Assembly: GCA_030145385.1 (NCBI GenBank)
Contig: JAQYVU010000007.1
Span: 17,930 to 81,929, forward strand
Direction: 5' to 3'
Length of the DNA stretch: 64,000 bases
DNA from: Desulfococcaceae bacterium
GTDB lineage: Bacteria; Desulfobacterota; Desulfobacteria; Desulfobacterales; Desulfosalsimonadaceae
The notes under the pieces are model-generated. The model had not been told where the DNA came from. It ran no database searches and saw only the letters and a list, made by a program, of their open reading frames with translations. Of the stretch, positions 2 through 56,887 are shown one piece after another (the first letter of the stretch is position 1; each line of letters starts with the position of its first letter). The position numbers were made by a program, and so were the translations under genes.

Positions 2-3000
2 TGTGTCCGTAAACTGGAAAGTGATACTGTGGCCGGATGTCAGCCCGATGATGCTGTCCCCAAATTCATTGCCCCCGGCATACTTGAAGATAAACTGGGC
101 ATCTGTCGCATCCGCGGTAATGGAGATGGTATCGTTTCCTGCACCGCCGGCAATATTGACGGTGTTGCCAGTGGCGGAAGCCACCCCCAGGCTGATATTT
201 ATATTATCGTTACCGGTGCCGCCGCTCAGGGTGATGTTGTTGTTGTTAAACGTTTCCCCGCTTACGAAAAGGCTCAGGGTATCACTGCCGGACCCGCCGG
301 TCATCAGGACATCATTGGAACTTATGAGCGCTGTGGCCGATACGGTCGTCGAGCTGCCTGATGCACCAGCAAGGGCTGAAGCAGCAGCGGATGCTGAAAT
401 ATGGAGCGTCAGCAGATCATCACCGGAACCACCGTCCATGGTAATTTGGTTATTAACAATGGAGGCCTGGGCACTGGCTGAAGCGCTTGCAAGGCTTGAT
501 GCTGAAGCACTTGCAAAGGCGGATGCGGTTGCCTGTAAAGTCAGGTCAAGGGTGTCACTCCCCCCGCCGCCGGTCATATCGACTGTGTTATTATTGACCT
601 GCGCAGACATGCTGACATCGGCAGACGCGCTGGTTACAGAACCTAAGGCGGTTGACGGAACTGCTGTTGCCGATCCCTGCGCTGCAGCGTTTAAGAGGGC
701 CGTGAGCGTATCGTTGCCGCCGCCGCCGCTCATGCTGATATCATTTAAGTTTATATTTGCAGAGCCGGATGCCAAAGCATACAAATAACCGCTTTCACCT
801 GAGGCCAGGGCTTTTGCCGAGGCATCGGCCGTAAGGCTCAACGTCAGGCTGTCCGTGCCGGTATCGGACCCGCCGAACATATCGATGTTGTTGTTTGAAA
901 CGGCTGCGTCAGCATAATACGCATAGGCATAAGCACCGGTATCCCCTATTGCCGTGGCCACCACATCAGCCATTGCCGACAGATGGGCGTAAAAAGTGTC
1001 GTCGCCGGCCCCGCCGGTCATGGTGACAACATTGCTGCTCACAGAGACATAAGCGCCGTAATAGCAACTGGCGTCGGCGCTCCCGTATTCCGCGGATGCA
1101 AATCCATTAATCGATGCATCTGCCTGGAGATCCAGGGACAGGGTGTCGTTACCCGTGCCGCCGTCCATGAAAATATTATTGGAACTGTTGTAGGCACAAG
1201 CCGTGTAGTAGCCAACGGTCACATCCGCATCCCCGCCAATCCCGCTTTCGGACCCGGCAATGGCAATCCCGGTTTCTTTTACCGATACCGACAGCAAGGC
1301 TGAGAGCGTATCATCACCGGACCCGCCGGTCATGGAAATATCGTTATTGCTCACGATAGCTGAAACAGTAGAATAGGCCACATACCCTGAGGCATCTCCT
1401 GCTTCAGCAGACATGAGACCATATATCGATAAATCGGCAGACAGGGTCAAATCAAGCGTATCATTTCCTGCGCCGCCATACATATTGATATCATTAGTGT
1501 AATTGTTAGCCGTTACAGAAGAATAATACGCAACAGTCATCCAGGCATCATTACTCGAACCGCCGGCAATCGCCTCCCCTTTTATACTTAACGATGCGCC
1601 AAGCAGGGCGGTGAGGGTATCGCTGCCGTCCCCGCCGCTCATCGTGATGGTGTTGTTGGAAACAGTCGCATAAGTATAGTAGTATCCGACTGTCAGGGTC
1701 ACAGAATTATCTGTCGCAGAGCCCAGACCGTAAACCGATGCATCGGCTGAAAGCGTCAATGAGAGCGTGTCGGTCCCGATGCCGCCGTCCATCTTAATAA
1801 TGTTGCTATTGACGTTTGCGCTTACAGTTGAATAAGCAGCGGTCAAATCAGCGTCCCCTGTTCCTTCTGCCTTTGCGATTGCCGAAGACTTTGCCGATGC
1901 TGCCAAGAGGGCCGTGAGGGTGTCGTTCCCGTCCCCCCCGGTCATGGTAATGGTATTAATGTTCACGTTAGCACTTGCACAGTAATAACCCCAGGCATCT
2001 GCATCCCCGGATGTCGCAAACGCAGAGGCTTTTGCCGCTGCATCGGCAGAAAGTGTCAGGGTCAATGTATCATCCCCGGCATCACCCCCCATATCAACAG
2101 CATTGCTGTTCACATAGGCCGATACAGAGCTTGCGTATACTGTCGCCGCCTCCCCGTTTGCAATGGCGGAATTCCTGGCCGTTGCCGCCAAAAGTGCCGT
2201 AAGTGTGTCATTGCCGTCCCCGCCGCTCATGGTGATTGTATTATCGTCGACATAGGCTGTAGCGTAATAAGCTGTAGCGTTTGCAGATCCGCCTGATGCC
2301 GAAGCATAGGCCGAGGCATTTGCCGACAGCGTCAGGGCCAGGGTATCGGCACCGTCACCGCCATCCATAAAAATTGTGTTGCTGCTTACATAAGCATAGG
2401 CATAGTCGGCAAAGGCATCCACGCTTTGGCTGCCTGTTCCTTTGGCAATAATGGAACTCTTTGCCGTGGCTGCCAGTAGCAGGTTAAGGGAATCATTGCC
2501 CGCACCACCGGTCATGGAAATCGTGTTATCATCAACATATGCGTAAGCATAAGAGGCAGTTGCCTCAGCACCACCGGAAACCGCAGAAGCTGAAGCAAAG
2601 TTGTAGGCGTCCGCCGACAGGGTCAGGGACAGGCTGTCGCTTCCGTCACCGCCAAACATGTTCACATTATTGCTGGTCACGTAAACATATGCATAAACAG
2701 CCTCAGCCACGGCAGCCTCAGAACCGCTTGCCGAGCCCTTGGCAATGGCTGTATTTCTTCCCGACGCTGCCAGAAGGGCTGTCATTGTATCGTTGCCATC
2801 GCCGCCGGTCATGCTGATGGTGTTATTGCAAACAAATGCATATGCATAATAAGCGATCGCATAGGCGTCACCAGAAGACGCAGCTTCAGAAGCCAGTACA
2901 TATAGATCCGCGTCTGCCGACAGGGTCAGTGATAATGTGTCACTCCCTTCCCCGCCAAACATGTTCACGATGTTATCCCCCACTGTGGCATATGCCGTAT

Positions 3001-5530
3001 AAGCGGCTGCATAAGCAGCAGTGTCATAAGTGGTAGCAGAGGCAGTCAGCGACGTGCCTTTGGCGATTGCCGTTATTCTGGCACTGGCTGCCAGAAGTGC
3101 CGTAAGCGTGTCATTGCCCGTACCGCCGCTTATGGTAACCGTATTGCTGTCAACCGTGGCATACGCATAATACGCAGAGGCAGAAGCCTCACCGCCGGAT
3201 GCTGAGATAAACATAGATGCAGTCGCAGACATTGTAAGGGACAGGGTGTCGGTGCCGCTGCCGCCATCCATATAAACATCGTTACTGTACACATACCCAT
3301 AGGCATAACTGCCAAATGCATCCACATTTTGGCTGCCGGTTCCATTGGCAATGGCTGTAATTTTTGCCGAGGCCGCCAAAAGGGCTTTAAGCGTATCATT
3401 GCCGGTTCCGCCCGTCATTGAAACAGAGTTAGAATACGCATAAGCATACGCATAATCACCGGAAGCGCTTGCGCCACCTGAGACGGCGGCTGCCTTCGCA
3501 TAAAGCTCCGCCTCTACCGACAAGGTCAGGGACAGGGTATCACTCCCGTCACCCCCAAACATATCCACAACATTGCTGTATATAGAATTGTAAGCATAAT
3601 ATGCACTTGCATACGCAACAGTGGTCGAGGAGTCTAACGCCCCAGTGGCGATGGCAGACACTCCACCGGAGGCTGCCAGGAGTGCCGTAAGTTCATCATT
3701 GCCGGCACCGCCGGTCATGCTGATGGTATTACAATAAATTTCGGCATAAGCAGAATAGCCGGTGGCTTCGGCACCTCCGGAAACTGCTGAAGCCAAAGCA
3801 TAAACGTCTGCATCTGCAGACAAGGTCAGGGTCAGGGTGTCATCCCCGGAACCGCCAAACATGTCCACATCATTACTGCTCACATAGACATAAGCATAAT
3901 AGGCAGTTGCAGAGGCCGCATCGGTAGTGCTGGAAGAGGCTTTGGCAATACCTGAGACTTTACCACTGGCCGATAAAATGGCTGTCAGGGTATCATTGCC
4001 CGTGCCGCCGTCCATAACAATCGTGTTGCTGCTTACTGTTGCATAGGCATAATAGGCATAGAGATAGGCGCCGCCGGACTCTGCCGAGGCCAGTACATAC
4101 ATTTCCGCGTCTGCCGCCAAGGTCAGTGACAGGGTGTCATCTCCTGAACTGCCGTACATGTTTATCGCATTGCTGTCTACAACTGCATATACCGTATAAC
4201 CCGTGCCATAAGCAGCATCGGAAGTGCTTGACGAGCCTTTGGCAATATTTGACATCTTTCCCGTTGCTGCCAGAAGCGCCGAAAGGGTGTCATTGCCGGT
4301 GCCGCCGATCATGGAAACCGTATTACTTTCAACAGTTGCATAGGCATAATACGCATACACCGTGGCTTCAGGGCCGGAGGCAGACGCATAGGCCCCTGCG
4401 TTGGCCGACAGCGTCAGGGACATGGTATCGGTTCCTGCGCCGCCGTCCATAAAGATGTTATTATTATTTACATCAGCACTGGCATATGAGGCATACGCAT
4501 AATTTAAGGAGGAAGACCCCGTGCCGACGGCAATGGCCGAAACCTTTGCCGAGGCCGCCAGTAGGGCTGCAAGATTATCGTTGCCCGCACCACCGGTCAT
4601 GGAAATCGAGTTGCTGCTCACTTGGGCATCGGCATAATAAGCATAGGCAGAAGCCCCGGAATCACCAGCGGAAGTTGCTGAGACCTGTGCATGCGCATAA
4701 AGGTCCGCATTCGCTGACAGGGTCAGGGACAACGTATCACTTCCGTCACCGCCGAACATGTTCACGGTATTGTTGTCCACATTCGCTTCAGCGGAATATG
4801 CAGATGCATCCGCAGCATATCCCGTTGCACTGCTTGTCCCGGCTTTGGCCGTTCCCGAAGCCTTTGCTGTTGCTGCCAACAAGGCTGAGAGGGTGTCGTT
4901 GCCGGTGCCGCCGTCCAGGGTGATTGCGTTGTGCGTAATTGATGCAGTGGCACTGTAGCCTGTGGCATCCGCAGAACCTGAACTCGTGGCCGATGCCAGG
5001 GCATAGGCAGTTGCATCTGCGGAAAGAGTCAGGGACAACGTATCACTGCCGTCACCGCCGAACATGGCAATGTCATTGTTGCTAAGGAGGGCTTCGGCCG
5101 TACTTGCCTTGGCAGCAGCAGAAGATGATGTGACATCTGTATGAGAAGCAAGTGCCTTAACTGAGAGTTGGGCTGTGAGCGTATCATTGCCGGCACCGCC
5201 GGTCATGGTAATGATGTTGCCCATGTCGATGGTGGTGGCTGTACTGGTAAAAGTACCACTCCTAAAAACATGGCCGATATTAGCCCGGGCGGCAGCAGAA
5301 AATCCCGTGGATTGATCCGAGGCCGTCATGGCAAGATTGAGTATGTCATCCCCGGTCCCCCCGTCCATGTTGATGGCATTCCAGTCGACATTTTGAGGAT
5401 CGATATCAAGGGAAAGCGTGTCGTTGCAGGCGCCGCCGGTCATATTGATCTGGTTTTGTGCGACAGCCCCTGTGGCGGAAATTTTTATTGATATATTATC
5501 GCTGCTCAGTCCGCCGTGCGCGCTGATCGC
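2..5530 (-). repeat. Coding tandem array of ~36 units of ~145-155 bp (~50 aa). Each unit carries one RTX-like nonapeptide (GGxGxDTL). Two unit types alternate, giving a super-repeat of ~295-300 bp.
   Basis: On the + strand the motif recurs as ccgccggtcatgg (1011-1023, 1323-1335, and near 2505, 3710, 4597, 5200), which encodes ..MTGG... These copies interleave with ccgccgtccat / ccgccaaacatg (near 1160, 1785, 2360, 2652, 2952, 3265, 3852, 4005, 4443, 4752, 5057), which encode ..MDGG../..MFGG... Confidence 0.8.
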
Positions 5531-8155
5531 GTTGCTTAAAACATTGGCCCCGGCCAGGGTGACGCCGATGGTGTCTCCTTCGTTTTCACCGTACGGACAT
5601 TCGGGCCCGCCGTTGAGATTGAAGGTGTTGCCGGAAACATTGCCGCTTGCCGACAATGTAACGCCGAGGGTGTCTGACCAGCCCCGTCCCTCAATATCTA
5701 TGTTGTAGCCGTTAAAATCACCGGTAAAGCTGCCGAGGTTTACCAGAAGGGTGTCCGGCCCCGAGTCTCCGGTAAGGGTCGTGCTGGTGCCGGTTACCGA
5801 GGTAATTGTCTGTTCAGTCCCTGCCGCCACATCATCATCAATAATGGTGCCGGATGCGGAAGCAGAAGTGATCCTCGCCCCCCCGCTGGAGTTGGAAAGG
5901 GTGACAATAAAATTGTTTGAATATTCACCACATGTATCGCCGGCTACCTGCACCGTTATTGTCTTGCTCGTTTCTCCGGCTGCAAAGGTCACCGTACCGC
6001 CGGGCAGAGCGCCGCCAAAATCATCGGCATCGGCGGGATGGTCGCCGCTGCCGGCGACACTCCAGTCCACTGTATGGGTTTTGCCTGTGTCACCATCTCT
6101 GGTCACGGTAAAAGTAAAATCCGTGAGGCCGGCATCACCCTCGACATTATTGGCTGAGTCTGCGGAGATGGAAATATCTGTGTATATCCTTACGTCATCG
6201 TTAATTATTTGTGCGAATGCGGATTCCGTGGTGATATTTGCGCCTTGCGACGCATTGGCCAGGGTAACGGTAAAGCCTTCGGTACTCTCTACTCTTGAAT
6301 CGCCTGCCACCTGCACCGTAATGGTTTGGGTCGTTTCACCGGCTGCAAAGGTCACCGTACCGTCGGGCAAATCGCCCCCGAAGTCATCGGCGTTGGCAGG
6401 ATGGTCGCCGCTGCCGGCTACACTCCAGTCCACCGTATGGGTTGTGTCCAGGTCACCGGCTCTGGTCACGGTAAACGTATAATCCGTCAGCCCGGCATCA
6501 CCCTCGACATGATCAGCTGAGTCTGCAAAGATGGAAATTTCTGCGTCATCATTGATTATCGCTTCATCATCATTGATTATTTGTGCGGTTGCAAATTCTG
6601 TGGTGATATTTGCGCCTGCCGAAGCATTGGACAGTGCAATTGAAAAACCTTCGTTATTCTCGATTATTGAATCGCCTGCCACCTGCACCGTAATGGTCTG
6701 GGTTGTCTCGCCGGCTGCAAAAGTCACCGTACCGCCGGGCAGAGCGCCGCCAAAATCATCGGCATCGGCGGGATGGTCGCCGCTGCCTGCTACACTCCAG
6801 TCCACTGTATGGGCTGTGCTTGTGTCACCGTCTCTGGTCACGGTAAAAGTAAAATCCGTCAGCCCCGCATCACCCTCAACATTATTGGCTGAGTCTGCGG
6901 AAATGGAGATCGCTGCGTCATCATTATTTATCGCTACGTCATCGTTAATTATTTGTGCGAATGCGGATCCCGTGGTGATATTTGCGCCAGCCGAAGCATT
7001 GGACAGGGTAATTGTAAAGTCTTCGTTACTCTCTACTGTTGAATCGCCTGCCACCTGCACCGTAATGGTCTGGGTTGTCTCGCCGGCTGCAAAGGTCACC
7101 GTACCGCCGGGCAGAGCGCCACCGAAATCATCGGCGTCGGCGGGATAGTCGCCGCTGCCGGCGACACTCCAGTCCACTGTATGGGTGGTGCTTGTGTCAC
7201 CGTCTCTGCTCACAGTAAAGGTATAAACCGTCAGGTCGGCATCACCCTCGACATTAATGGCTGAGTCTGCGGAAATGAAGATCTCTGCGTCATCACTGTT
7301 TATCTCTGCGTCATCATTGATTATTTGTGCGAATGCGGATCCCGTGGTGATATTTGCGCCTTGCGAAGCATTGGACAGGGTAATTGTAAAGCCTTCGTCA
7401 CTCTCTACGGTTGAATCGCCGGCCACCTGCACCGTAATGGTCTGGGTTGTCTCGCCGGCTGCAAAGGTCACCGTACCGCCGGGCAGAGCGCCACCGAAAT
7501 CATCGGCGTCAGCTGGATGGTCACCGCTGCCGGCTACACTCCAGTCCACCGTAGGGGTTGTTTCCAGACCACCATTCCTGGTCACGGTAAAGGTAATATC
7601 AGTCAATCCTGAGTTCCCCTCTGCCTGACTGACCGAGTCCGTGGAAAGCGCAATAGTTGACAGGAAATATGGTAAATCCGGATCATCGCTGCCGGAGCGG
7701 CCATCAGGCTGGAAATATGGTAAATCCGGATCATCGCTGCCAGGCTTGTTTTCATTGCCTGCGTTTTGCATCCCTCCATTTTCATCTAAACCGAGATCCC
7801 AGAGTGTTTCATCGAGCCATGGCAGATCAGCAGTATCATTTATGGGCGCCCAGTCAAAGCTGTTGTTTCCCCCCAGTAAAGATTCCAGATCATCCATGGA
7901 GGCATTGAATGCTTCCTCATGGGAAAAACCGTTGATCAGAGATTGATTATAGGTATGTAATACTGATGTACGCATATCAGCAAACTGTTGCGGTGTTTTA
8001 CCAAACAGGTCCGCTAATGTTGCCTCTATGGCATTTAACGTAGTGATTAACGCCACTTTAGCGTTGGCACCTTCTGCCAATGCAGCATCATACGTTTCAT
8101 TTGCAATGCTCATTAAACCTTCGATGATATGTTCTACAGAATGTCCATCAGACAT
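2..8155 (-). CDS. Giant repetitive secreted/surface protein, N-terminal 2718 codons only (3' end lies beyond the window start). It has a ~150-aa unique N-terminus, 5 Calx-beta modules, then ~36 RTX-like GGxGxD units. Probable type I secretion substrate/adhesin.
   Basis: ATG at 8155-8153 with GAGGG 7 nt upstream. Hand translation of the minus frame (codon starts = 1 mod 3) gives MSDGHSVEHIIEGLMSIANE..., then ..VDWSVAGSGDHPADADDFGGALPGGTVTFAAGETTQTITVQVAGDSTVE.. (Calx-beta signature) and ..ITMTGGAGNDTLTAQLS... The frame is still open at the edge (..GDSIIGLTSGHSITFQFTD). The ORF track lists no minus ORF in this frame, so there is no in-frame stop between 8155 and 2. The track evidently drops ORFs that lack a stop inside the window. 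Confidence 0.85.
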   Translation of the reverse strand, partial: MSDGHSVEHIIEGLMSIANETYDAALAEGANAKVALITTLNAIEATLADLFGKTPQQFADMRTSVLHTYNQSLINGFSHEEAFNASMDDLESLLGGNNSFDWAPINDTADLPWLDETLWDLGLDENGGMQNAGNENKPGSDDPDLPYFQPDGRSGSDDPDLPYFLSTIALSTDSVSQAEGNSGLTDITFTVTRNGGLETTPTVDWSVAGSGDHPADADDFGGALPGGTVTFAAGETTQTITVQVAGDSTVESDEGFTITLSNASQGANITTGSAFAQIINDDAEINSDDAEIFISADSAINVEGDADLTVYTFTVSRDGDTSTTHTVDWSVAGSGDYPADADDFGGALPGGTVTFAAGETTQTITVQVAGDSTVESNEDFTITLSNASAGANITTGSAFAQIINDDVAINNDDAAISISADSANNVEGDAGLTDFTFTVTRDGDTSTAHTVDWSVAGSGDHPADADDFGGALPGGTVTFAAGETTQTITVQVAGDSIIENNEGFSIALSNASAGANITTEFATAQIINDDEAIINDDAEISIFADSADHVEGDAGLTDYTFTVTRAGDLDTTHTVDWSVAGSGDHPANADDFGGDLPDGTVTFAAGETTQTITVQVAGDSRVESTEGFTVTLANASQGANITTESAFAQIINDDVRIYTDISISADSANNVEGDAGLTDFTFTVTRDGDTGKTHTVDWSVAGSGDHPADADDFGGALPGGTVTFAAGETSKTITVQVAGDTCGEYSNNFIVTLSNSSGGARITSASASGTIIDDDVAAGTEQTITSVTGTSTTLTGDSGPDTLLVNLGSFTGDFNGYNIDIEGRGWSDTLGVTLSASGNVSGNTFNLNGGPECPYGENEGDTIGVTLAGANVLSNAISAHGGLSSDNISIKISATGAVAQNQINMTGGACNDTLSLDIDPQNVDWNAINMDGGTGDDILNLAMTASDQSTGFSAAARANIGHVFRSGTFTSTATTIDMGNIITMTGGAGNDTLTAQLSVKALASHTDVTSSSAAAKASTAEALLSNNDIAMFGGDGSDTLSLTLSADATAYALASATSSGSADATGYSATASITHNAITLDGGTGNDTLSALLAATAKASGTAKAGTSSATGYAADASAYSAEANVDNNTVNMFGGDGSDTLSLTLSANADLYAHAQVSATSAGDSGASAYAYYADAQVSSNSISMTGGAGNDNLAALLAASAKVSAIAVGTGSSSLNYAYASYASADVNNNNIFMDGGAGTDTMSLTLSANAGAYASASGPEATVYAYYAYATVESNTVSMIGGTGNDTLSALLAATGKMSNIAKGSSSTSDAAYGTGYTVYAVVDSNAINMYGSSGDDTLSLTLAADAEMYVLASAESGGAYLYAYYAYATVSSNTIVMDGGTGNDTLTAILSASGKVSGIAKASSSTTDAASATAYYAYVYVSSNDVDMFGGSGDDTLTLTLSADADVYALASAVSGGAEATGYSAYAEIYCNTISMTGGAGNDELTALLAASGGVSAIATGALDSSTTVAYASAYYAYNSIYSNVVDMFGGDGSDTLSLTLSVEAELYAKAAAVSGGASASGDYAYAYAYSNSVSMTGGTGNDTLKALLAASAKITAIANGTGSQNVDAFGSYAYGYVYSNDVYMDGGSGTDTLSLTMSATASMFISASGGEASASAYYAYATVDSNTVTISGGTGNDTLTALLAASARITAIAKGTSLTASATTYDTAAYAAAYTAYATVGDNIVNMFGGEGSDTLSLTLSADADLYVLASEAASSGDAYAIAYYAYAFVCNNTISMTGGDGNDTMTALLAASGRNTAIAKGSASGSEAAVAEAVYAYVYVTSNNVNMFGGDGSDSLSLTLSADAYNFASASAVSGGAEATASYAYAYVDDNTISMTGGAGNDSLNLLLAATAKSSIIAKGTGSQSVDAFADYAYAYVSSNTIFMDGGDGADTLALTLSANASAYASASGGSANATAYYATAYVDDNTITMSGGDGNDTLTALLAATARNSAIANGEAATVYASSVSAYVNSNAVDMGGDAGDDTLTLTLSADAAAKASAFATSGDADAWGYYCASANVNINTITMTGGDGNDTLTALLAASAKSSAIAKAEGTGDADLTAAYSTVSANVNSNIIKMDGGIGTDTLSLTLSADASVYGLGSATDNSVTLTVGYYYTYATVSNNTITMSGGDGSDTLTALLGASLSIKGEAIAGGSSNDAWMTVAYYSSVTANNYTNDINMYGGAGNDTLDLTLSADLSIYGLMSAEAGDASGYVAYSTVSAIVSNNDISMTGGSGDDTLSALLSVSVKETGIAIAGSESGIGGDADVTVGYYTACAYNSSNNIFMDGGTGNDTLSLDLQADASINGFASAEYGSADASCYYGAYVSVSSNVVTMTGGAGDDTFYAHLSAMADVVATAIGDTGAYAYAYYADAAVSNNNIDMFGGSDTGTDSLTLSLTADASAKALASGESGYLYALASGSANINLNDISMSGGGGNDTLTALLNAAAQGSATAVPSTALGSVTSASADVSMSAQVNNNTVDMTGGGGSDTLDLTLQATASAFASASASSLASASASAQASIVNNQITMDGGSGDDLLTLHISASAAASALAGASGSSTTVSATALISSNDVLMTGGSGSDTLSLFVSGETFNNNNITLSGGTGNDNINISLGVASATGNTVNIAGGAGNDTISITADATDAQFIFKYAGGNEFGDSIIGLTSGHSITFQFTDT
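5831..7660 (-). repeat. Five tandem Calx-beta modules (~124 aa each; 372-bp period, 363 bp for the last) within the giant CDS
   Basis: The string cgcc(t/g)gc(c/t)acctgcacc recurs at 5938, 6301, 6673, 7045 and 7417. Each module encodes ..TVDWSVAGSGD(H/Y)PA(D/N)ADDFGG.LP.GTVTFAAGET(T/S)(Q/K)TITVQVAGD.. and ends in ..IINDD/IIDDD. Confidence 0.8.
7663..7741 (-). repeat. Tandem 48-nt duplication (31-nt identical core) encoding GSDDPDLPYF twice, between the N-terminal domain and the first Calx-beta module
   Basis: ggaaatatggtaaatccggatcatcgctgcc occurs at 7663-7693 and again at 7711-7741. Confidence 0.9.
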
Positions 8156-8264: not shown

Positions 8265-9527
8265 CTAAAGTTTGCCCATTGTTTCCAGCAGGGCATTGAT
8301 GTTGATTTTCACATCGGTTTTCGCGGATGCCGCATCGCTCTTGGCGTTGATAAGATTTGTTTCACCGGCAAGAACATCCAGAAGAGAACGTCTGCCAAGC
8401 TTGCGTTCTTTGCGTGCAAGTTCCAGAAACTGCTCAAGAATGTCTACCTGGCTATTCAAAAAACTTGAATTTGTGCGGGCGGTATCCACGTTGGCCCATG
8501 AGTTACGAACCTGTTCTTCAACCTGTTTTTTTAAATAATCACGGTTTTTAACAGCCGCCGCATAATCTTCTCTGGCTGACCGCACTTTATTGGTAGCGGT
8601 TAATCCCAGGTTAAAGGAATAAGAGAGTTCCACCTTGGCAACATAATCTTCTCTTCTCGCCTCAATGCCGCCGACTTCATCTTTCACGTCCGCCTGAAGA
8701 ACACCATTGATTACGGGAAGATAACCGTCAGCCTTGCTGGCGGAAAGAAGCGCATCGGCCTCCTTAACGGCAAAGTCCGCAACTTTCAGATTGGGATTTG
8801 ACTTCATGGCAACCTGCACCGCTTCGTCAACAGTTGCCGGCAGAGGCTGAGGAGAAGAATCTGTCGTAGTCAGGGCAGAGATTTCATCTGGCAAGCGGCC
8901 GAAAACTCTTTGCACCCTGTTTTTGGCCCGTTCGTAAACCCCTCTGGCACTGACGAGCCTTGCCTGCGCTCCCAGAAGTTGTGATTTTGACTGGAGTACG
9001 TCGGTTGAATATCCCTGGCCACGGGTAATACGGGTATTTTCCATCTCAGTCTGATGCTTGATGTTATTTTCTGACTGCTGGGCGTACTGAATGATATCTT
9101 CGGCATTTTTAAGTTCGAGATAGGCTACATTACCTTCCAGTATCAACTCCTGCCTGACCCGTTCCTTATCGGCAGAATATCTCAAATATTCGTTTCGTGC
9201 CTTCCGCAACCTTGCGTTGGTAAGGCCAAAATCCCAGAGAAGCTGCGTTATGGAAGCATCTAACTCTTTTGGATTTTGCGACAAATCATCAACATCTTCG
9301 AGTCTGTATTCGGAAGTGCCGGCAGAGGCCGTTAAATCAAGCTTGGGAAACCAGCCCCCAAGGGCTACGCGTATCTTATTTTCGGCTGAGACTTCCCTTG
9401 CCTGGGCTTCCTGGAGGCGTTCATGACTTTTTAGCATATTTGAAATTGCTTCATCCAGTTCCTCAGCCATGGCAGGGGAACCGAGCAGTAGGCTAATACA
9501 AACCATACCCATCAAAATCTTTTTCAT
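8265..9527 (-). CDS. TolC-family outer membrane efflux/type I secretion protein
   Basis: 420 aa with signal peptide MKKILMGMVCISLLLGSPAMA. It has the two-fold internal repeat of long helical segments typical of outer-membrane efflux (OEP/TolC) proteins. It lies directly upstream of the giant repeat protein on the same strand (109-nt gap). Confidence 0.8.
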   Translation of the reverse strand: MKKILMGMVCISLLLGSPAMAEELDEAISNMLKSHERLQEAQAREVSAENKIRVALGGWFPKLDLTASAGTSEYRLEDVDDLSQNPKELDASITQLLWDFGLTNARLRKARNEYLRYSADKERVRQELILEGNVAYLELKNAEDIIQYAQQSENNIKHQTEMENTRITRGQGYSTDVLQSKSQLLGAQARLVSARGVYERAKNRVQRVFGRLPDEISALTTTDSSPQPLPATVDEAVQVAMKSNPNLKVADFAVKEADALLSASKADGYLPVINGVLQADVKDEVGGIEARREDYVAKVELSYSFNLGLTATNKVRSAREDYAAAVKNRDYLKKQVEEQVRNSWANVDTARTNSSFLNSQVDILEQFLELARKERKLGRRSLLDVLAGETNLINAKSDAASAKTDVKININALLETMGKL

Positions 9528-10467: not shown

Positions 10468-11586
10468 ATGAGCCTTCGATTTCGACTTTTACTTCTGATG
10501 CTGATGTCCCTGGCATTATTTTTCGGATATCTCAATCTGTTTATTCCGGAAAACATCCCTTACAATTTTGATCGTCTGCACATTTTTCTGTTCAACCTTT
10601 GCAGCGGCGGATCAATTATCCTGTATTTTACCGAAGGCCATCAGAAAGTATCGCCCAAAATTATCGTGTTTCTTGTCATGGCGATAATTTACGCGATATT
10701 TGCTTTTTTTAATATTTATATTCCAGTCCTGGTCATTACCTTAGGCCTGGTGGCGATTGTCGAAAGCGCCCGGATTAAAAAATTTTCTTTCTTTCCTTTT
10801 GATTTCTTCAAATCCGAAGTCCCGGTATCCGCCAAATTCCACCAGGCATCTCTGCTGTGCCTTTCAATGGGACTGGTGATTTCCGGACTGGTGATATTAA
10901 ACAACGAATATTTTAAGGTTGTCACGACCTTCCCCAAACTCCAGCTGGACACCTTTTTCCTGGGATTTTCATTTCCCCTTTCCCTGATCACCATGTCATT
11001 GCTGTTCAGTTTAATGAAAGATAACGGCAAACCCATTCTGTGGATGAAAAACATCGGCTTCTGGTTTGTCAACCTGGGTGTCATCGTTTTCTTTCTTTTT
11101 ATCATTTTAGAAAAACTGATACCCCAGGTGTTTGTCACTTTAATTCTTTTTTCCACCGTCATGATGATTCTGTATCTTCTGGTAAGACTGGGTGAGGACT
11201 TGCAGCAGAAAGCGTTTCTGATTTCCGGCATGGGATTTTTGCTTTATACTGCGGTCACCGGGATCATGTACATCGTCTATGAAATGTCTCCGGATTATGC
11301 CAGCGAAAACTATAAATGGCTGCTGCGCATGCATTCCTTTGCATCCCTGTACGGCTGGAATCTCTGCGGACTCGCCATCATCTGCCGGTTTGAGGATTTT
11401 CCGTTAAAACTTCACTCGTATACCCTGATTGCATTTCACTGGATCACGGTTATTTTTCTAGCGCCCATGGGAACGTATTATAAATTCTTTGCCTGTTCAG
11501 CCACTGTTTGTTTTATTATTATTTTATACGCCGTTATGTTTACAAAAGGGACAGCAGACAAAATCGTATCTGTTTCAAAAAATTAA
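10468..11586 (+). CDS. Polytopic integral membrane protein, family not recognised
   Basis: 372 aa with about ten hydrophobic helices (LLLLMLMSLALFFGYLNLF, IIVFLVMAIIYAIFAFF, FWFVNLGVIVFFLFIIL ...). First gene of a co-directional four-gene cluster. Confidence 0.6.
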   Translation: MSLRFRLLLLMLMSLALFFGYLNLFIPENIPYNFDRLHIFLFNLCSGGSIILYFTEGHQKVSPKIIVFLVMAIIYAIFAFFNIYIPVLVITLGLVAIVESARIKKFSFFPFDFFKSEVPVSAKFHQASLLCLSMGLVISGLVILNNEYFKVVTTFPKLQLDTFFLGFSFPLSLITMSLLFSLMKDNGKPILWMKNIGFWFVNLGVIVFFLFIILEKLIPQVFVTLILFSTVMMILYLLVRLGEDLQQKAFLISGMGFLLYTAVTGIMYIVYEMSPDYASENYKWLLRMHSFASLYGWNLCGLAIICRFEDFPLKLHSYTLIAFHWITVIFLAPMGTYYKFFACSATVCFIIILYAVMFTKGTADKIVSVSKN

Positions 11587-45940: not shown

Positions 45941-46918
45941 GGCATCCTCCTGAAATATTAAATATTGAGTCCAAAACAGGGTTATTTTAAAATATTTTGT
46001 CTTTTATTCCAAGTCAAAAGCCTGGCCTGACCCTATTGTATTCTCATCAACAATAAATTATTATTATTGAATGTTTATTATTTGTATGGATATTTTCTTT
46101 TAAGAATGAGTAAATGTGCGTTTTCCCGGTCGTTTGAAAATCGAAAATATTCTCTACTTTTCTTTGGCGGGCAAAGCAAAGTAGCAAAAGAAACCCGCCC
46201 TGCAGCATGTTCCCTCGATCCGCAGGTTTCCATGGCGGGATCAAAAACTCGATCAATCTTTGGCCCGGAAAGTTTATTTTATTTCTTGTTCACCTTTTTG
46301 CCTCTCAAAGACTTCAGCTTTGCCGCCGCTCAGACAGTTTGCTCCCTTGTCCCATGGAAACCAGCTTCTCTCGGCTATGCTGCAATGGGATTCCTCCGGC
46401 GTTCAAACTGTGGCACAAATGCTGTGAAATAAAAGTGGCATTTTGCAAGGTTGTTGAATTCCCCCTTTTGCTCCTCCGGAACACTGGCAACCAGTTGCCC
46501 GTGCCACCCCAAGACTTTTTGCCCACTCATTTTGCAATTTGCTAACAAAGTCTCTGATCAATACTCTTTGCTATGTATGGATACAAAATAAATGATGAAA
46601 TACTTTGTCGGAGTGCTTGCGCCACTTGAGATCCGTTGGTTTTCAAACGCGCTCTGCGCGGATAAATGGCAAGGAAACTATTTATTTCGTCAAACCCAAA
46701 CCCGGTACGGCAACATAAGAATAATGATAAAAATTGTTCGCCGAAAGGGTTTGCCCATTGCGATGCAGCCCTGAACCGAGGTTTGTGTGGAACAAGGGAG
46801 ACACTGTTTGAGCTGCGTTTACTCCGACAGTGGATTAACAAAAATGATTTGACCGAAGCTTTGGGAAAAGCCCTATCGAGGGCTATTGCCGTCAGCTCTA
46901 AAAATTATGAGACCTCCG

Positions 46919-47239
46919 TTATTCTGTTGAAACTAATTTGAGTCCCACTATTCCGGATACAATGAGAAGCAAACAGACAACCCTGAGGATGTCTCGTGAT
47001 TCACTAAATAGGATCATACCCAATATTGCTACTCCAACCGCACCAACGCCAGTCCATACGGCGTATGCTGTGCCTACTGGAATAGTCTTCATAGCCAATG
47101 ATAATAACCAAACACTAATGACCATACCTGAGACGGTCAGTAATGATGGAATAAGCTTTGTAAATCCAAAAGTATATTTTAATCCAATGGCCCATCCGCA
47201 TTCAAACAAGCCAGCAATTATCAAATAAACCCATGACAT
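46919..47239 (-). CDS. sugE: SMR-family exporter, SugE/Gdx type (guanidinium/quaternary ammonium efflux)
   Basis: 106 aa, four TM helices, [22 protein letters not shown]... with the conserved membrane Glu. GGGAG Shine-Dalgarno upstream. Confidence 0.85.
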
Positions 47240-47269
47240 GTTTCTACTCCCTGACCTGATTTTGTTGCC

Positions 47270-47660
47270 TCATCTCGCGGTAGGAACGCCGGTTACCCGG
47301 CACCCCCCGCACAGACCCGGACGTTCGGTTTTCCCGCATCCGATTCCTCGGTTGTACTCGCTTTCGCGCAAATCATTAGCATTATGTAAATACCCGATGT
47401 CGTTTGGTCGATAGTGGGAGATTGGGTTTAGCAATCCCGAGTCGCTCGATGGCCAATTAATTGCCTTCCAGGCAAAGCTTTTTCGCTTTCCACCTCGTCG
47501 GTTTAGCCATTTGAATGCACTTTCAATCGCCCAACTGTAAAAACGCCATAATGACCTTAAGTTGCCGACCACACTGTAATAATTGTAATGTCCGCGCAGC
47601 CGTCGATTCAACTCCGTTATGAATTTAATCCCCTTTAAAGTAGAAATATGGTAATATCAC
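47270..47660 (-). mobile_element. Group II intron reverse transcriptase/maturase relic (domain X and C-terminal tail only; RT domain missing)
   Basis: ..GIKFITELNRRLRGHYNYYSVVGNLRSLWRFYSWAIESAFKWLNRRGGKRKSF.W.. matches the maturase RGWxNYY region. The tail ..CGKTERPGLCGGCRVTGVPTAR is typical of intron ORF ends. The frame is closed by a TGA near 47668, so only ~130 codons survive. Confidence 0.6.
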
Positions 47661-47904
47661 GCAGTATCTCAGGCATTTGTTTTAATGCCTGTAAATATGT
47701 TTTCAATTTATCTTTCATCTGATGTCTAACTATGCGTAACCGACGCGAGGAGCTTAGTGACAAGCGTTCGGTTTACGCATTTGTTAGTCGAGATATATTA
47801 TTTGTTGTATTTCTTCCTACGTGAGCCTTCATTTCAACCATCACTTAAAGACAATAAGTAACGCAAACGGCGTTTCAATTGGTTTTTTTTCGATACCGCA
47901 GTGA

Positions 47905-48321
47905 CTATTTCTCCTCAATCGAAATCTTGAACTCAACAGTTCCCAACCCTCCCAGTTCGAGACCAGGATCTGTGCATCTAAATCCAGCCATAAAAGCGGT
48001 TATATCACCCTTTTGGTACATGCGATCTAACAACGATGTACTCTTTTCATAAAGTGGCTGAATCGCCCCCAGGCACAAGGGCGCCGTACTCTCCTGTGCG
48101 TTGATCTCTACAGCTCTATCCAACACATACTTCTGCCCAACTTGTAGCCCGGCATAACAATACTTGGAGCTGACCACTTCGGCGACCAATCGATATTTAT
48201 CGACCGCTTCCGTTGCGTTTAAAATAGTCTTTTCCATTTCGGGAGTCACTTTTGCCATATCCTCCTCTGTCATACTGAGAATCTCGACCGCGATTGCCTT
48301 GAGCCCTTCGTCTTTGATCAT
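47905..48321 (-). CDS. Hypothetical protein (possibly TIGR04076-like)
   Basis: 138 aa. ..KYCYAGLQVGQKYVL......APLCLGAIQPL.......FRCTDPGLELGGLGTVEFKISIE weakly recalls the TIGR04076 pattern. Confidence 0.4.
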   Translation of the reverse strand: MIKDEGLKAIAVEILSMTEEDMAKVTPEMEKTILNATEAVDKYRLVAEVVSSKYCYAGLQVGQKYVLDRAVEINAQESTAPLCLGAIQPLYEKSTSLLDRMYQKGDITAFMAGFRCTDPGLELGGLGTVEFKISIEEK

Positions 48322-48741
48322 GTCACGCCTCCTGTTACGGTTTGTTTATGACGACGTTTTATCTAATATATTACGACTAACATTAGTTATTCAACAGACC
48401 GGCTTCTTTTTGTCCAGAAACCGAATATTTTGATAAATTTTGGTAATATTACCAAAAAAGCACCAAATTATCAAAAACATAATAATTTAATGTATATCAA
48501 ATTGTTATTCCGATTTTGGTTTTTTGCTAAAAAATGAACATAGTTCAAATTGGTCGTTTTTTGTTCCAATTAATGCACTTCAAGAGAGAAACCATTGAAT
48601 TTTACTTTTCAATTAACAGCACGAGATTGCATACCATATATTGTGCTTGAGATTTGTTAAAGTACAACCAAATTAGATGATAATGATTTTTATAAATTCA
48701 AGAATGGAGATAAAACCGACAGTATTCCAGATTTTTTTTGA

Positions 48742-48942
48742 TGCGTGGACTATCGATAAAAACAGACAACATTCCCGCAACGGCCGCCAGTGCACATTGT
48801 GATAAACTTTACGGGATTTTTAAAAATCAAACATCCCACATATCGTGGTTGAATTTCCATAATATTCTCGAATCGCAGGTTGAAAATTATCTGACATTTG
48901 TTGGCCTGATCACAACTTTATTGATTTCCGCTACCCCAAGAT
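48742..48942 (+). repeat. Direct repeat, copy 1 (135 bp identical to 59520-59654, plus ~55 bp of diverged extension)
   Basis: 48752-48886 is base-for-base identical to 59520-59654 (checked by eye). Homology resumes at gatcacaactt..atttccg.taccccaagat. Confidence 0.9.
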
Positions 48943-49254
48943 ATGGAAAAATTGCCTTATTGAATAAACCGGCATTAGCACTGAATTCGGTTGGTATGTT
49001 GCACAGATGGCCAGAATTTTACGGCGAGCACAAGCTATTGCAAGATGCAATGAGGAGGAGAGTTTTGATGGTGAGCACTATCTTTGTCTCACCAAAGTTT
49101 TATTTCTTGACATAATCGGAGATTGATTCAACCCGATCTATAGCGCAAAAGTCTTGTTTCAACACAACGTATTGATATTAATTATCATATAGGTAAATAT
49201 TAAACATTATTATCCAGGTGATTCCCTATGTTCAATGCATGCCCTGCCTAAAAA

Positions 49255-50260
49255 CAATATGACATTGACGAACCGCGCAATCCGAATACGACGCCTAACT
49301 TCCAATGCACGTAGATCATTTTGAAGACCTGGAGATGGCTTAGGATAATCGCTACCAAAGTCAGTATGGATTTTTCAGACCTTATGTCCGGGACATGATT
49401 TACCGGTATCTGAACTGCGGGGCCCTGCACCTAAAATTTGCCCGGGTGAGATGCCTTGATTGCGGCCATGAGTATCTTTTGCCGTTTTTCCTGCAAGCGC
49501 CGTCATTTCTGCCCCTCCTGCCACCAGAAAAAAGTCATCGAGTTCGGTGAATGGATGTGCGAGGAGGTCTTGAAACATTTGCCACATCGTCAATGGGAGT
49601 ACTCCATCCCCAAACAGCTTCGCGTATTTAATTGGTCTCTGAAATCAACAGCCTCTATGGGCGTGGATATCTACTATGACCATCGCCTGCTGCTTGCCGA
49701 GCTTTCCCTGTGTGCTTGGAAAGTCTTATCCACATATCTGAAAACCAGTGTGAGATAAGATGACACGATTCCCGGCGGCGTAATCGCGGCCCAGATCTTC
49801 GGCGATTTTCAGAATTTTAATCCCCATCTGCACATTATCGCAACCGATGGCTGTTTTTATGAAAACGGCCTGTCGGCGTGCAACGCACGGACAGGCCTTT
49901 TCATCAAGGGGCCGCAACCCGTTGCAAGGGAGTTGGAGGATTCATTTCGCCGGGAGGTCTTTGCCTGCTCAAAAAAGAGGGAATGATCACCGATCTTGTC
50001 ATCGATAATATGATGTGCCAGCATCACAGCAGCTTCAACGTCTATTGCGACAAGACCCTCTGGCCAGACAATGAAGAGGGACTGGAAAATCTGGCCCGAT
50101 AAATTATCCAGCGTCATTTTCATCCGAGCGGATGACTTATATCCCGGCCTCTGAAACAAAAACCGGGACGGCCAGAGTCATTTATCATTCCAAGAATGAA
50201 CACAGCTTTTGCATTCCTGCCCGAAAGCCATCGCACAATTTTTTCAGAAGAATACAAAAA
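49255..50260 (+). mobile_element. IS91-family (Y2/rolling-circle) transposase pseudogene: multiple frameshifts and stops, 3' truncated
   Basis: The pieces lie in three frames: EPRNPNTTPNFQC / HVDHFEDLEMA*DNRYQSQYGFFRPYVRDMIYRYLNCG..ARVRCLDCGHEYLLPF / SCKRRHFCPSCHQKKVIEFGEW...HRQWEYSIPKQLR / ..PGGVIAAQIFGDFQNFNPHLHIIATDGCFYENG / ..ITDLVIDNMMCQHHSSFNVYCDKTLWPDNEEGLENLAR*. These are the Zn-binding and Y2-transposase motifs of IS91-like elements. Confidence 0.7.
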
Positions 50261-50405
50261 CCGAACGGCAAAATTCAGTACAAAGAAAACTATCGCTTTT
50301 CAGGACAGAAACATTGATATGATTTAAAGCTGAGAGAGTTTTCAGTTCTAATGAAATGAGGATAATGGCAGAAAAAGATAATCAATTCCATTTAAAACCG
50401 CTTTT

Positions 50406-50566
50406 AGGGCCGTGGAAAAAATAAAATATCCCAAATAGCGAAGGATTTTGCTTCCACATTCAAGGCGCGATGAAGCAAACATATCGAGATGCGTATGTTG
50501 CATCGCAACAAAGAAGGCGAAGCAATCGACCCGCAAGATCGCGGCATTTATATTTTTCACAGCCCT
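50406..50566. repeat. Long-hairpin intergenic repeat, subfamily B, copy 2
   Basis: agggccgtggaaaaaataaaatatccca ... gcgaaggattttgcttcc..attcaaggcgcgatgaagc...tcgcaacaaagaaggcgaagcaa ... with a degraded right arm, cggcatttatatttttcacagccct. Confidence 0.75.
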
Positions 50567-50995
50567 TATACCCGCCAAAAGATGAACCAAAGGTCTCAAA
50601 CGCCCCCTTCCGTTAACGTAAGTTTTTTGATTGTTAATAACTTAATCTGGTGCAACAAGAATTTGCATTAATTGCAAGGATGGCAAGTACTGAAAGGATT
50701 GCACACTGGCTTTAATGCTTTTTTTGACTCCGAAAATTTCAAAATTGCGCCACCATTGGAGAAAGATTACAGACTAATATTCATATTTTTTGATGGTTAA
50801 CTTAACTCGCCCCTTTTCGTTCCCTGCACGTTCCGTGTTCGCCCAAATATTACATATTTGTAATGATGCAAGTGCAAACTTACAATTCTGTATTTTATTT
50901 TCAAATCCCACAATGTGGCAGCTAAAGTATAATACGGAAAATAACCCAATGGATTTTAAGATTATTGTAAAAAAGAGATCACATCGATGGGTTTA

Positions 50996-56859: not shown

Positions 56860-56887
56860 AAAACATATAGAAAAAAAAGGATTTATT

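What the first reader, a model, noticed from the sequence alone, without database searches (positions are those of the whole stretch)
2..5530. Non-canonical use of the RTX motif: isolated GGxGxDTL nonapeptides every ~50 aa in an alternating A/B unit
Canonical RTX domains stack GGxGxDxUx nonapeptides back to back. Here each nonapeptide stands alone and recurs every ~145-155 nt; I located ~36 copies between 290 and 5520. The copies are separated by ~40 aa of A/S/T/Y/G-rich sequence (e.g. ..AYYAYATVSSNTI..). The units strictly alternate. Type A is (I/V)SMTGGxGNDTLTALLAAxA(K/R).. and type B is (V/I)xM(F/D/Y)GGxG(S/T/D)DTLSLTLSADA... I do not recognise this ~100-aa super-repeat as a described domain.
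Basis: partly seen in the sequence, partly recalled or inferred. Interest (0 to 1): 0.65.

Follow-up and report, generated by a model that had tools for sequence, protein, structure and literature searches.

The report
Extra-wide one-sided RTX beta-roll repeat
A giant secreted surface protein of a sulfate-reducer-like bacterium uses the well-known calcium-binding RTX turn only once per ~50 residues, and is predicted to fold into an unusually wide, flat calcium-edged beta-solenoid that matches no described domain or solved structure.

Summary
One open frame runs from 8155 to 2 (at least 2,718 aa) and continues off the window start. It holds 34 exact GGxGxD turns against 0.19 expected by chance. 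They are spaced 45-57 aa apart, never 9 or 18, and two unit types alternate strictly (nearest neighbour has the same parity for 28 of 28 units). Pfam, NCBIfam and PDB sequence searches do not recognise the repeat. An exhaustive HMMER search of 1.84 billion cluster representatives finds only 40 relatives, and the clear ones are in Desulfobacterales-type genomes. Two independent AlphaFold2 models (pLDDT 94.9 and 92.6) predict an all-beta fold for each unit: a short strand, the RTX turn, an 18-residue strand, a loop and a 13-residue strand. Sequence positions alternate between inward and outward facing. The wide part has no PDB analogue. The narrow C-terminal coils resemble canonical RTX beta-rolls such as serralysin and the AlgE R-module. 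Relatives share an operon of TolC, the repeat protein, a TPR-sulfotransferase, a T1SS ABC transporter and HlyD. I read it as a type I secreted protein whose body is a one-sided, extra-wide beta-roll. This is a new variant of a known kind. The closest known case is the 19-residue one-sided roll of MpIBP RIV. The fold, calcium binding and function are all predicted, not shown.

The parts
2..8155 (-). Giant repeat-protein gene. It is partial: at least 2,718 codons, with the 3' end and stop codon lying beyond the window start. By alignment to homologs, about 75-100 aa of the C-terminus are missing.
   Evidence: Single open frame found in the six-frame scan. C-terminal alignment with the complete homologs P0001-P0006.
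7871..8155 (-). Conserved N-terminal domain of about 95 aa. It looks helical from the sequence and matches no known family.
   Evidence: Aligns at 24-31% identity with the N-termini of P0002, P0003, P0018 and the L005 member. No Pfam or NCBIfam hit.
7646..7870 (-). Acidic, variable linker containing two DDPDLPYF motifs.
   Evidence: Read from the sequence and from alignment A8.
5801..7645 (-). Array of five Calx-beta domains, recently duplicated at the DNA level.
   Evidence: Pfam PF03160, E 2.3e-44, 5 stretches. TRF reports period 372 nt x 4.5 copies at 85% identity over 5936-7605.
5381..5788 (-). Five narrow, degenerate N-terminal units (25-32 aa each, aa 790-925) that open the repeat body.
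   Evidence: Read from the translation. The first is also found by the motif scan at aa 796.
317..5380 (-). Main body: about 34 wide units (45-57 aa each, aa 926-2613), each with one GGxGxD turn. Type A (NxISMTGGxGNDTLTALLAAsAK..) alternates strictly with type B (NxVxMFGGxGSDTLSLTLSADA..).
   Evidence: AF2 model of aa 1377-1575: pLDDT 94.9, pTM 0.87, all-beta.
92..316 (-). Three narrow C-terminal units of 25 aa (aa 2614-2688) with one GGxGxD turn each.
   Evidence: The equivalent part of P0002 is modelled with confidence and resembles RTX beta-rolls.
2..91 (-). Start of the conserved C-terminal tail domain (..FIFKYAGxxEFGDSIIGLTSGH..). The rest, including the ..LYYDADGxG...DVGLTAADI end, lies off the window.
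   Evidence: Alignments A4 and A5. The tail profile retrieves canonical RTX proteins.
8265..9527 (-). TolC-family outer-membrane protein gene, directly upstream on the same strand.
   Evidence: Pfam OEP, E 1.8e-49. NCBIfam TIGR01844 type_I_sec_TolC, 207.6 bits, just under the 225.15 cutoff. The same gene is in the same position in L002, L004 and L005.

Best explanation
The region encodes the body of a giant, very acidic protein that is most likely exported by a type I secretion system. The layout is: a conserved N-terminal head, five Calx-beta domains, about 42 repeat units, and an RTX-type C-terminal tail.

Each repeat unit is predicted to form one full coil of a flattened, two-sheet parallel beta-solenoid. 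A short strand (NxIxM) leads into one classical RTX turn (GGxGxD). The chain then runs back as an ~18-residue strand in one sheet, turns through a Gly/Ser-rich arc, and returns as a ~13+5-residue strand in the other sheet. All RTX turns therefore stack on one edge. There, neighbouring turns could complete one Ca2+ site per coil, as happens between turns n and n+2 in a canonical beta-roll. The other edge has no metal site.

The result would be an Ala-cored plank about 6 nm wide and 20 nm long that tapers to 25-residue coils at both ends. Strict A/B alternation is explained by complementary stacking of neighbouring coils: Lys/Arg over Asp/Glu/Ser, Ser/Thr over Tyr/Phe, and Ala over Leu.

After C-terminus-first export into Ca2+-rich water, the narrow C-terminal roll would nucleate, and each emerging unit would add a coil. 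This would give vectorial, Ca2+-driven folding and a rigid surface structure.

Shown: the sequence pattern, its rarity, its homology to RTX tails, and the operon context in relatives. Predicted: the fold. Inferred: Ca2+ binding, dimensions, stacking logic, folding order and biological role (a rigid stalk or surface plank for adhesion or a surface layer).
For: Motif and periodicity statistics. No curated family or PDB sequence covers the unit.

AF2 on four window units (12-row alignment of non-overlapping repeat blocks plus homologs) gives pLDDT 94.9 and pTM 0.87, with strands 5 / turn / 18 / loop / 13 per unit. An independent AF2 run on the true-orthologue alignment of the P0002 C-terminal 366 aa gives pLDDT 92.6 and pTM 0.90, with the same pattern narrowing into short coils.

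Column analysis shows strict period-2 alternation. The inward positions are L14, A/L16, L18, A20, A22, x24, A26, A28, and A47, A49, A51, A57, A59, V61. Polar residues lie between them. G7, G10 and D12 of the turn are invariant, and G8 nearly so (26 of 28). There is also a lag-2 autocorrelation peak.

Foldseek on the wide part returns only beta-solenoids and beta-helices (FapC, CsgA, pectate lyases, ice-binding proteins, CyaA RTX), none significant and with TM about 0.1. With the narrow C-terminal coils included, the top hits are RTX beta-roll proteins: 1KAP, PrtC (prob 0.99), serralysin, I.3 lipases, and AlgE6R1 (TM 0.53 on the target, prob 0.97).

The C-terminal profile retrieves 94 canonical RTX proteins (PF00353, PF08548), with E down to 1.5e-23.

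The operon TolC - repeat protein - TPR-sulfotransferase - ABC - HlyD is found in L004 and L005. The HlyD protein passes the curated T1SS model TIGR01843 (416 and 397 bits against 208.65). A TolC gene lies upstream in the window and in L002.

The repeat region is strongly acidic (D+E 9.0% against K+R 1.7%), as is typical of Ca2+-folded RTX domains.

Unit width varies from 25 to 57 aa within the family around the same strand-turn-strand core. This fits a solenoid whose strands can lengthen.

Canonical Ca2+ coordination by stacked turns, and the one-sided 19-residue roll of MpIBP RIV, are documented in PMC6891781.
Against: I could not inspect model coordinates, only DSSP strings and confidence values. 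Parallel in-register stacking, sheet packing, dimensions and the Lys/Asp ladder are therefore inferred from sequence and from the kind of Foldseek hits, not observed.

The alignments are shallow (12 and 7 rows), and the first consists largely of internal repeats. AF2 is also known to favour solenoids for repetitive sequences.

All Foldseek E-values are 0.008 or higher.

The window shows neither the C-terminal signal nor any ABC or HlyD gene, because they would lie off the window. In L002 no ABC or HlyD gene is adjacent.

The window's TolC-like protein is just below the curated T1SS-TolC cutoff, and the relatives' ABC proteins are below the T1SS cutoffs.

No experimental data exist for any family member.
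Confidence: 0.6

Rival explanations
1. The GGxGxD turns are isolated Ca2+-binding points joined by flexible, low-complexity Ala/Ser/Thr/Gly/Tyr linkers. The protein would then be a largely disordered, extensible tether, and the AF2 solenoid would be an over-confident artefact of repetitive sequence.
For: The composition is strongly biased (A 19.6, S 14.2, G 11.0, T 10.5%). The alignments used for AF2 are shallow and partly made of internal repeats. The wide part has no significant structural neighbour.
Against: The spacers are not free-form. Unit length is tightly held at 45-57 aa. Hydrophobic and small residues recur at every second position over 18- and 13-residue stretches and are conserved in 33-38%-identical homologs whose polar residues differ. 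Pro is 0.1%. Two independent AF2 runs agree at pLDDT above 92, with no segment below 50.
Confidence: 0.1
2. The fold is as predicted, but the role is self-assembly. The flat planks or their open ends would polymerise into a surface layer or amyloid-like fibres, as in T1SS-secreted S-layer proteins or CsgA/FapC-type functional amyloids, rather than acting as a monomeric stalk or adhesin.
For: The best, though non-significant, Foldseek hits for the wide part are the FapC and CsgA fibril structures. The relatives' ABC transporter is the short type (560-566 aa) with no N-terminal C39-like domain. From my own knowledge, this type serves released or S-layer substrates such as RsaA rather than LapA-type retained adhesins. 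No LapA-type retention module was detected. The N-terminal head is conserved and could act as an anchor.
Against: The solenoid tapers into narrow coils and capping domains at both ends, which argues against open-ended stacking. Calx-beta arrays are typical of adhesin extenders. There are no curli or Fap secretion genes. More distant family members do carry N-termini that look like LapA-type retention modules (P0005-P0007).
Confidence: 0.15
3. The flat solenoid face is a ligand-binding surface for a regular substrate such as a mineral, a polysaccharide or ice. It would use ladders of Tyr/Thr/Ser, in analogy with the ice-binding face of MpIBP RIV.
For: Tyr occupies three to four fixed columns in nearly every unit of the window protein, and also of P0003 and P0004 (6.3% Tyr in the repeat region). 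MpIBP RIV is a one-sided Ca2+ roll that binds ice through a repetitive flat array (PMC3492233).
Against: The Tyr columns are not conserved. P0001 and P0002 have 0.5-1.1% Tyr in their repeat regions, with Phe/Gly/Ala at those positions, yet keep the same architecture and context. No Thr-x-Asx ice-binding array is evident.
Confidence: 0.1

Closest known systems
MpIBP (MpAFP) region IV of Marinomonas primoryensis: one-sided, Ca2+-bound beta-roll with 19-residue turns (PDB 3P4G; described in PMC3492233 and PMC6891781)
   Same: There is one RTX-type GxGxD turn per coil, so Ca2+ sits on one edge only. It lies in a giant T1SS surface protein just upstream of a canonical RTX/C-terminal region. The coil is longer than the canonical 18 residues. 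Family member P0030 even has 19-residue units.
   Different: Here the coil is 45-57 residues instead of 19. The second Gly-rich turn (GGxUxG) is replaced by a variable Gly/Ser arc. The strands are about 18 residues long with an Ala-rich core. Two coil types alternate strictly. No Thr/Asx ice-binding array is present. 3P4G was not among the top 50 Foldseek hits.
Canonical RTX beta-roll (Pfam PF00353 HemolysinCabind; serralysin/alkaline protease C-terminal domain, AlgE R-modules, CyaA RTX blocks)
   Same: The GGxGxD-x-U-x turn sequence is the same (34 exact copies). The protein is acidic and Gly/Asp-rich. The C-terminal tail is homologous to those of RTX proteins. The narrow terminal coils resemble 1KAP, PrtC and AlgE6R1. 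Relatives carry a T1SS operon.
   Different: There are no tandem nonapeptides at all (0 spacings of 9 or 17-19). PF00353 is below threshold (15.3 against 23). There would be one turn per coil instead of two, and so one Ca2+ column instead of two. The coil is about 2.7 times longer.
Functional amyloid beta-solenoids CsgA and FapC (PDB 8ENQ, 9U4U)
   Same: They are two-sheet strand-arc-strand coils stacked in register, with small residues in the core. They are the top Foldseek hits for the wide units.
   Different: The hits are not significant (E 0.008-0.5, TM 0.10-0.19). There is no Ca2+ turn in curli or Fap. The secretion systems differ. Here the solenoid is one covalent chain of about 42 coils with capped ends.
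RaxX-RaxST-RaxA-RaxB of Xanthomonas oryzae (tyrosine sulfation coupled to type I-like secretion; PMC4646787, PMC6637879)
   Same: A sulfotransferase gene lies inside a T1SS operon next to the substrate gene in relatives. The sulfotransferase domain is closest to protein-tyrosine sulfotransferases TPST1/2.
   Different: The substrate is a protein of 660-3,200 aa, not a 60-residue peptide. The enzyme is fused to a TPR domain. The ABC transporter lacks a peptidase domain. The sulfotransferase gene is not visible in the window itself, and sulfation is untested.

Membership tests
RTX repeat proteins (Pfam PF00353 HemolysinCabind) | Tandem, back-to-back nonapeptides GGxGxDxUx (9-residue spacing, two per beta-roll turn) | tested here: not met
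   Of 36 spacings between motifs, none equals 9 or 17-19. The median is about 49-50.
RTX repeat proteins (Pfam PF00353 HemolysinCabind) | Score at or above the Pfam gathering threshold | tested here: not met
   15.3 bits against a cutoff of 23, with no stretch passing on its own. The relative P0004 reaches 26 bits only as a summed score.
RTX repeat proteins (Pfam PF00353 HemolysinCabind) | Presence of the Ca2+-binding turn sequence GGxGxD followed by x-hydrophobic-x | tested here: met
   34 exact GGxGxD sites. G7, G10 and D12 are invariant, G8 is present in 26 of 28 units, and L14 in 26 of 28 (M in the other 2).
RTX repeat proteins (Pfam PF00353 HemolysinCabind) | Actual Ca2+ binding and Ca2+-dependent folding | not testable with these tools
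   This needs biochemistry, or at least AF3/AlphaFill modelling with ions.
Type I secretion system substrates | Uncleaved C-terminal secretion signal/tail related to those of known substrates | tested here: inconclusive
   The window protein is cut about 75-100 aa before its end. The visible start of the tail aligns with complete homologs. Their tail profile retrieves canonical RTX proteins.
Type I secretion system substrates | Genetic linkage to a TolC-like OMP, an ABC transporter and a HlyD-family adaptor | tested here: inconclusive
   The window has only the TolC-like gene upstream, and the rest would lie off the window. Relatives L004 and L005 have the full set, and their HlyD passes TIGR01843. 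L002 has only the OMP gene adjacent.
MpIBP RIV-type one-sided beta-roll | 19-residue turn xGTGNDxuxuGGxuxGxux with Ca2+ on one side | tested here: not met
   Units are 45-57 aa (25 aa at the ends) and lack the second GGxuxG turn. The one-sided placement of the turns is predicted, not shown.
LapA/Bap-type RTX adhesins | N-terminal retention module and a LapB-type ABC transporter with an N-terminal C39-like domain | tested here: not met
   No retention-module family was hit in Pfam or NCBIfam, and the N-terminus is a different conserved ~95-aa domain. The relatives' ABC proteins are 560-566 aa and align only from position ~144 of the LssB/HlyB models.
Calx-beta domain proteins (PF03160) | Match above the Pfam threshold | tested here: met
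   150.6 bits against 27, five stretches, aa ~170-785. This covers only the part N-terminal to the finding.
Curli/Fap functional amyloids | Sequence or significant structural similarity to CsgA/FapC and the dedicated secretion genes | tested here: not met
   Foldseek E 0.008-0.5 and TM 0.10-0.19. No Pfam hit. No csg or fap genes were seen in the neighbourhoods examined.

The most novel reading that the evidence does not exclude
This would be a previously undescribed structural class: a Ca2+-edged 'wide beta-roll' whose ~50-residue coils obligatorily alternate between two complementary types. The class would be confined to a small group of Desulfobacterales-like bacteria. Its members would be tyrosine-sulfated in the cytoplasm by an operon-encoded TPR-TPST-like sulfotransferase before type I export, which would make them the first giant bacterial sulfoproteins and a new kind of modified surface material.
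Probability: 0.15. Interest if true: 0.85.

Novelty: new variant of a known kind. Interest (0 to 1): 0.6.

Why it matters
RTX beta-rolls are a textbook case of a fixed 9/18-residue geometry. They are used as Ca2+-switchable scaffolds in protein engineering and as the folding ratchet of type I secretion. A natural family that keeps the Ca2+ turn but stretches the coil to about 50 residues on one side would show that the roll is far more plastic than assumed. Such a family with a thin Ala core and obligatory A/B coil alternation would add a new solenoid geometry with no PDB analogue. It would also offer a design template for wide, flat, metal-gated beta materials. The conserved TPST-like sulfotransferase inside the secretion operon of relatives raises a testable possibility: protein sulfation coupled to T1SS outside Xanthomonas.

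Tried and rejected
- Translating the + strand as implied by the coordinates gave many stops.
- My first homolog search had a frame error.
- An alignment of overlapping 8-unit windows was useless because MAFFT aligned the identical overlaps (A2). I replaced it with non-overlapping blocks (A3).
The exhaustive HMMER profile search was needed.
- An exact look-up of the window's TolC-like protein, meant to recover the DNA beyond the window start, found nothing on record. The window's own downstream genes therefore remain unknown.
- A PDB sequence search with the unit profile gave only a chance Dps hit (E 0.25).
- Literature searches for a spaced-RTX or wide-roll description found none. BapP of Pseudoalteromonas (PMC12153261) looked relevant by keywords but is an Ig-domain adhesin.
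- I considered sulfation of the YAYYAYA strands. I down-weighted it because Tyr is nearly absent from the repeats of P0001 and P0002 and sparse in the repeats of the L005 member, although L005 has the sulfotransferase gene adjacent and P0002 has a stand-alone one about 6 kb away.
- I considered a recent DNA-level tandem amplification. TRF does not detect the A/B units, only the Calx-beta repeats.
- I did not use the viral structure library or the metagenome and viral contig scans, because they would not bear on the question.

Full report
**What is there**

The + frame of 2-5800 is broken by many stops. The reverse strand carries one uninterrupted frame from ATG 8155 (or 8113) to position 2, at least 2,718 codons, and it runs off the window start.

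From N to C the protein has these parts:
- A ~95-aa domain, helical in appearance, that is conserved in relatives but matches no family.
- An acidic linker.
- Five Calx-beta domains (Pfam E 2.3e-44). They are recent DNA-level duplicates: 372-nt period, 4.5 copies, 85% identity.
- The repeat body from about aa 790, which is the subject of the finding.
- The first ~30 residues of a conserved C-terminal tail.

Alignment with complete homologs shows that only about 75-100 residues are missing. A TolC-family gene (8265-9527) lies 109 nt upstream on the same strand.

**Check of the observation**

A relaxed motif finds 37 turns. Of these, 34 are exact GGxGxD, against 0.19 expected in residue shuffles (maximum 4 in 2,000). 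Spacings are 45-57 aa. None is 9 or 17-19, so there is not a single canonical tandem nonapeptide pair.

The exceptions are explained as follows. Five narrow, degenerate units (25-32 aa) open the array. One B unit has a 2-residue insertion in its turn. Three 25-aa units close the array.

The two-type alternation is strict over the 28 regular units. Every unit's nearest neighbour has the same parity (28 of 28), with 53% identity within a type and 40% between types. The best self-identity lag is 99 aa, ahead of 51. At the DNA level the units are too diverged for TRF to detect, so this is an old, selected pattern and not a recent amplification.

**Recognition by existing resources**

Pfam gives HemolysinCabind 15.3 bits against a cutoff of 23. 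NCBIfam gives nothing for the repeat body. The same holds for four relatives. A profile of the ~100-aa A+B unit finds nothing in PDB sequences. Full-text searches found no description of such a repeat.

**Distribution**

A word-indexed search found two homologs, P0001 and P0002. The exhaustive HMMER search of 1.84 billion 50%-identity cluster representatives, using the unit profile, found 40 proteins at E<=1e-3 and 6 at E<=1e-30.

In these proteins the GGxGxD turns are likewise spaced, with medians of 26-86 aa, and almost never 9 apart. Unit length varies between members: 25-36 aa in P0007, P0015, P0018 and the 663-aa L005 protein, 19 aa in P0030, and 46-57 aa in the window protein and P0001-P0004.

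A scan of 185,579 species genomes placed the clear relatives in a Desulfosudaceae MAG, a Thermodesulfobacteriota single-cell genome and a Desulfobacterales MAG. Weaker hits in Alphaproteobacteria and Selenomonadales carry 19-30-aa spacings mixed with canonical 9-aa runs.

So the window protein is the wide extreme of a continuum of solenoids with one RTX turn per coil. The known structural representative of that continuum is the 19-residue one-sided roll of MpIBP RIV (PMC6891781; PMC3492233). The window's own genome is not among the species representatives. Its gene content (sigma-54 activator, Fe-S nitroreductase, radical SAM enzymes) fits that phylum.

**Fold**

AF2 on four window units (aa 1377-1575) used an alignment of six other non-overlapping four-unit blocks plus five homolog blocks. 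It gave pLDDT 94.9 and pTM 0.87. Per unit it predicts a 5-7-residue strand, the turn, an 18-residue strand, a 4-8-residue loop, and a 13-residue strand that continues after a 2-residue break into the next unit's short strand.

A second, independent run used a true-orthologue alignment of the last 366 aa of P0002. It gave pLDDT 92.6 and pTM 0.90 with the same pattern, which narrows to short coils and a small C-terminal domain.

I could not access coordinates, so the topology is argued indirectly:
- The long strands show strict inward/outward alternation. The inward positions are Leu/Ala near the turn and almost pure Ala further out, on both long strands, as expected for two sheets packed face to face. 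A lag-2 peak appears in the autocorrelation.
- All Foldseek neighbours of the wide part are parallel beta-solenoids or beta-helices. FapC and CsgA come first, but nothing is significant and TM is about 0.1. That means the local geometry matches solenoids while no solved structure has this coil size.
- With the narrow terminal coils included, the best neighbours are bona fide RTX rolls: 1KAP, PrtC (prob 0.99), serralysin, I.3 lipases, and AlgE6R1 (TM 0.53 on the target).
- The C-terminal sequence profile retrieves canonical RTX proteins down to E 1.5e-23.

Together these support a beta-roll-derived solenoid in which each ~50-aa unit is one coil and all Ca2+ turns lie on one edge.

The dimensions are inference. 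About 42 coils at a 4.8 Å rise gives roughly 20 nm, and 18-residue strands give roughly 6 nm. In the canonical roll a Ca2+ is completed by the turn one coil further on. Here that role would fall to the next unit's turn, and all liganding positions are conserved.

**Why A and B alternate**

The two types differ at a few fixed positions:
- On the outward face of the long strand: column 17 L/T, 19 A/S, 21 S/D, 23 K,R/S,D,E, 25 S,T/Y,F, 29 K/S.
- In the turn: column 11 N/S,T,D, and column 6 T/F,D,Y.
- At one inward position: column 16 A/L.

In an in-register stack these positions lie directly above one another. Alternation would then pair opposite charges and pair small with large side chains. This is my inference. 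It predicts that homotypic A-only or B-only arrays fold poorly.

**Secretion context and a side lead**

In L004 (which encodes P0003) and L005 the gene order is: TolC-like OMP, repeat protein, a 613-615-aa TPR + Sulfotransfer_3 fusion, a 560-566-aa ABC exporter whose best matches are the T1SS LssB/HlyB/PrtD families, and a HlyD adaptor that passes the curated T1SS model.

L014 (P0004) also has the TPR-sulfotransferase directly downstream. L002 (P0002) has the OMP gene upstream and a stand-alone Sulfotransfer_3 gene 6 kb away.

The sulfotransferase domain is closest to the protein-tyrosine sulfotransferases TPST1/2 among solved structures (E 6e-6). This recalls RaxST-RaxAB. However, Tyr richness of the repeats is not conserved across members, so any target is more likely elsewhere or is not Tyr. 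This is unproven and lies outside the window.

**Function**

What seems well supported is a type I secreted, Ca2+-dependent surface protein with a rigid solenoid body. Whether that body is a stalk, a self-assembling layer or fibre, or a binding face cannot be decided here. I list these as rivals.

Three things point away from a LapA-type retained adhesin for this subgroup, and make an S-layer-like or otherwise anchored protein plausible: the short ABC type, the absence of a LapA-type retention module, and the conserved N-terminal head.

**Verdict**

It is a new structural variant within the RTX / one-sided-roll world, not a new kind of system. The fold and calcium claims rest on prediction.

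Noticed in passing
L004:10906-12747, L005:10772-12619, L014:5357-7204 (relatives; the corresponding position is off the window start): A TPR + Sulfotransfer_3 fusion gene sits between the repeat-protein gene and the T1SS ABC/HlyD genes in L004 and L005, and directly downstream of the repeat-protein gene in L014. Its catalytic domain is closest to the protein-tyrosine sulfotransferases TPST1/2 (E 6e-6). This may be substrate sulfation before type I export, as with RaxST-RaxAB.
   Followed up: partly
window 5936-7605 (- strand gene): The Calx-beta domains are near-identical DNA repeats (372-nt period, 4.5 copies, 85% identity). They are much younger than the A/B units, which TRF cannot detect at the DNA level.
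   Followed up: partly
window 46000-51100: A 5-kb stretch has no ORF above 138 aa and no Rfam hit. It contains an SMR transporter gene (46919-47239, -) and an IS91-type transposase zinc-finger fragment (49456-49758, +). It is probably a decayed mobile-element scar.
   Followed up: partly
window 51128-59095: A high-GC island (56-59% against about 43% around it) encodes an OpuAC-type binding protein, an ABC ATPase, a long fused permease (755 aa), EutA and an apparent EutB-EutC fusion (779 aa). It lies next to the transposase fragment, so it may have been acquired horizontally.
   Followed up: no
P0018 (1,900 aa; representative hit): This family member has the same N-terminal head and the same tail, but 31-40-aa units that are extremely Cys-rich (e.g. 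NSTCISGGEGNDTLNHRVGLDLAGSVCCSNLIYCC). It may be a disulfide- or metal-laced version of the solenoid.
   Followed up: no
P0005 (2,394 aa): This protein contains two complete solenoid-plus-tail modules in tandem. An internal copy of the ..LSYDADGSGAGAAVVVASFTQDVGLTAGDIDL tail occurs around the middle of the protein. That is odd if the tail is only a C-terminal secretion signal.
   Followed up: no
window 7646-7870 (- strand; aa 96-170): The linker carries two copies of DDPDLPYF. Relatives have other acidic-aromatic motifs in the same linker (DDPTDYMLQMF, GEEYDIFG, PESDYQVFG). These resemble tyrosine-sulfation contexts but are not aligned or conserved.
   Followed up: partly
window 10468-11586 (+): A 372-aa ORF is divergent from the TolC-like gene and has no Pfam match.
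   Followed up: no
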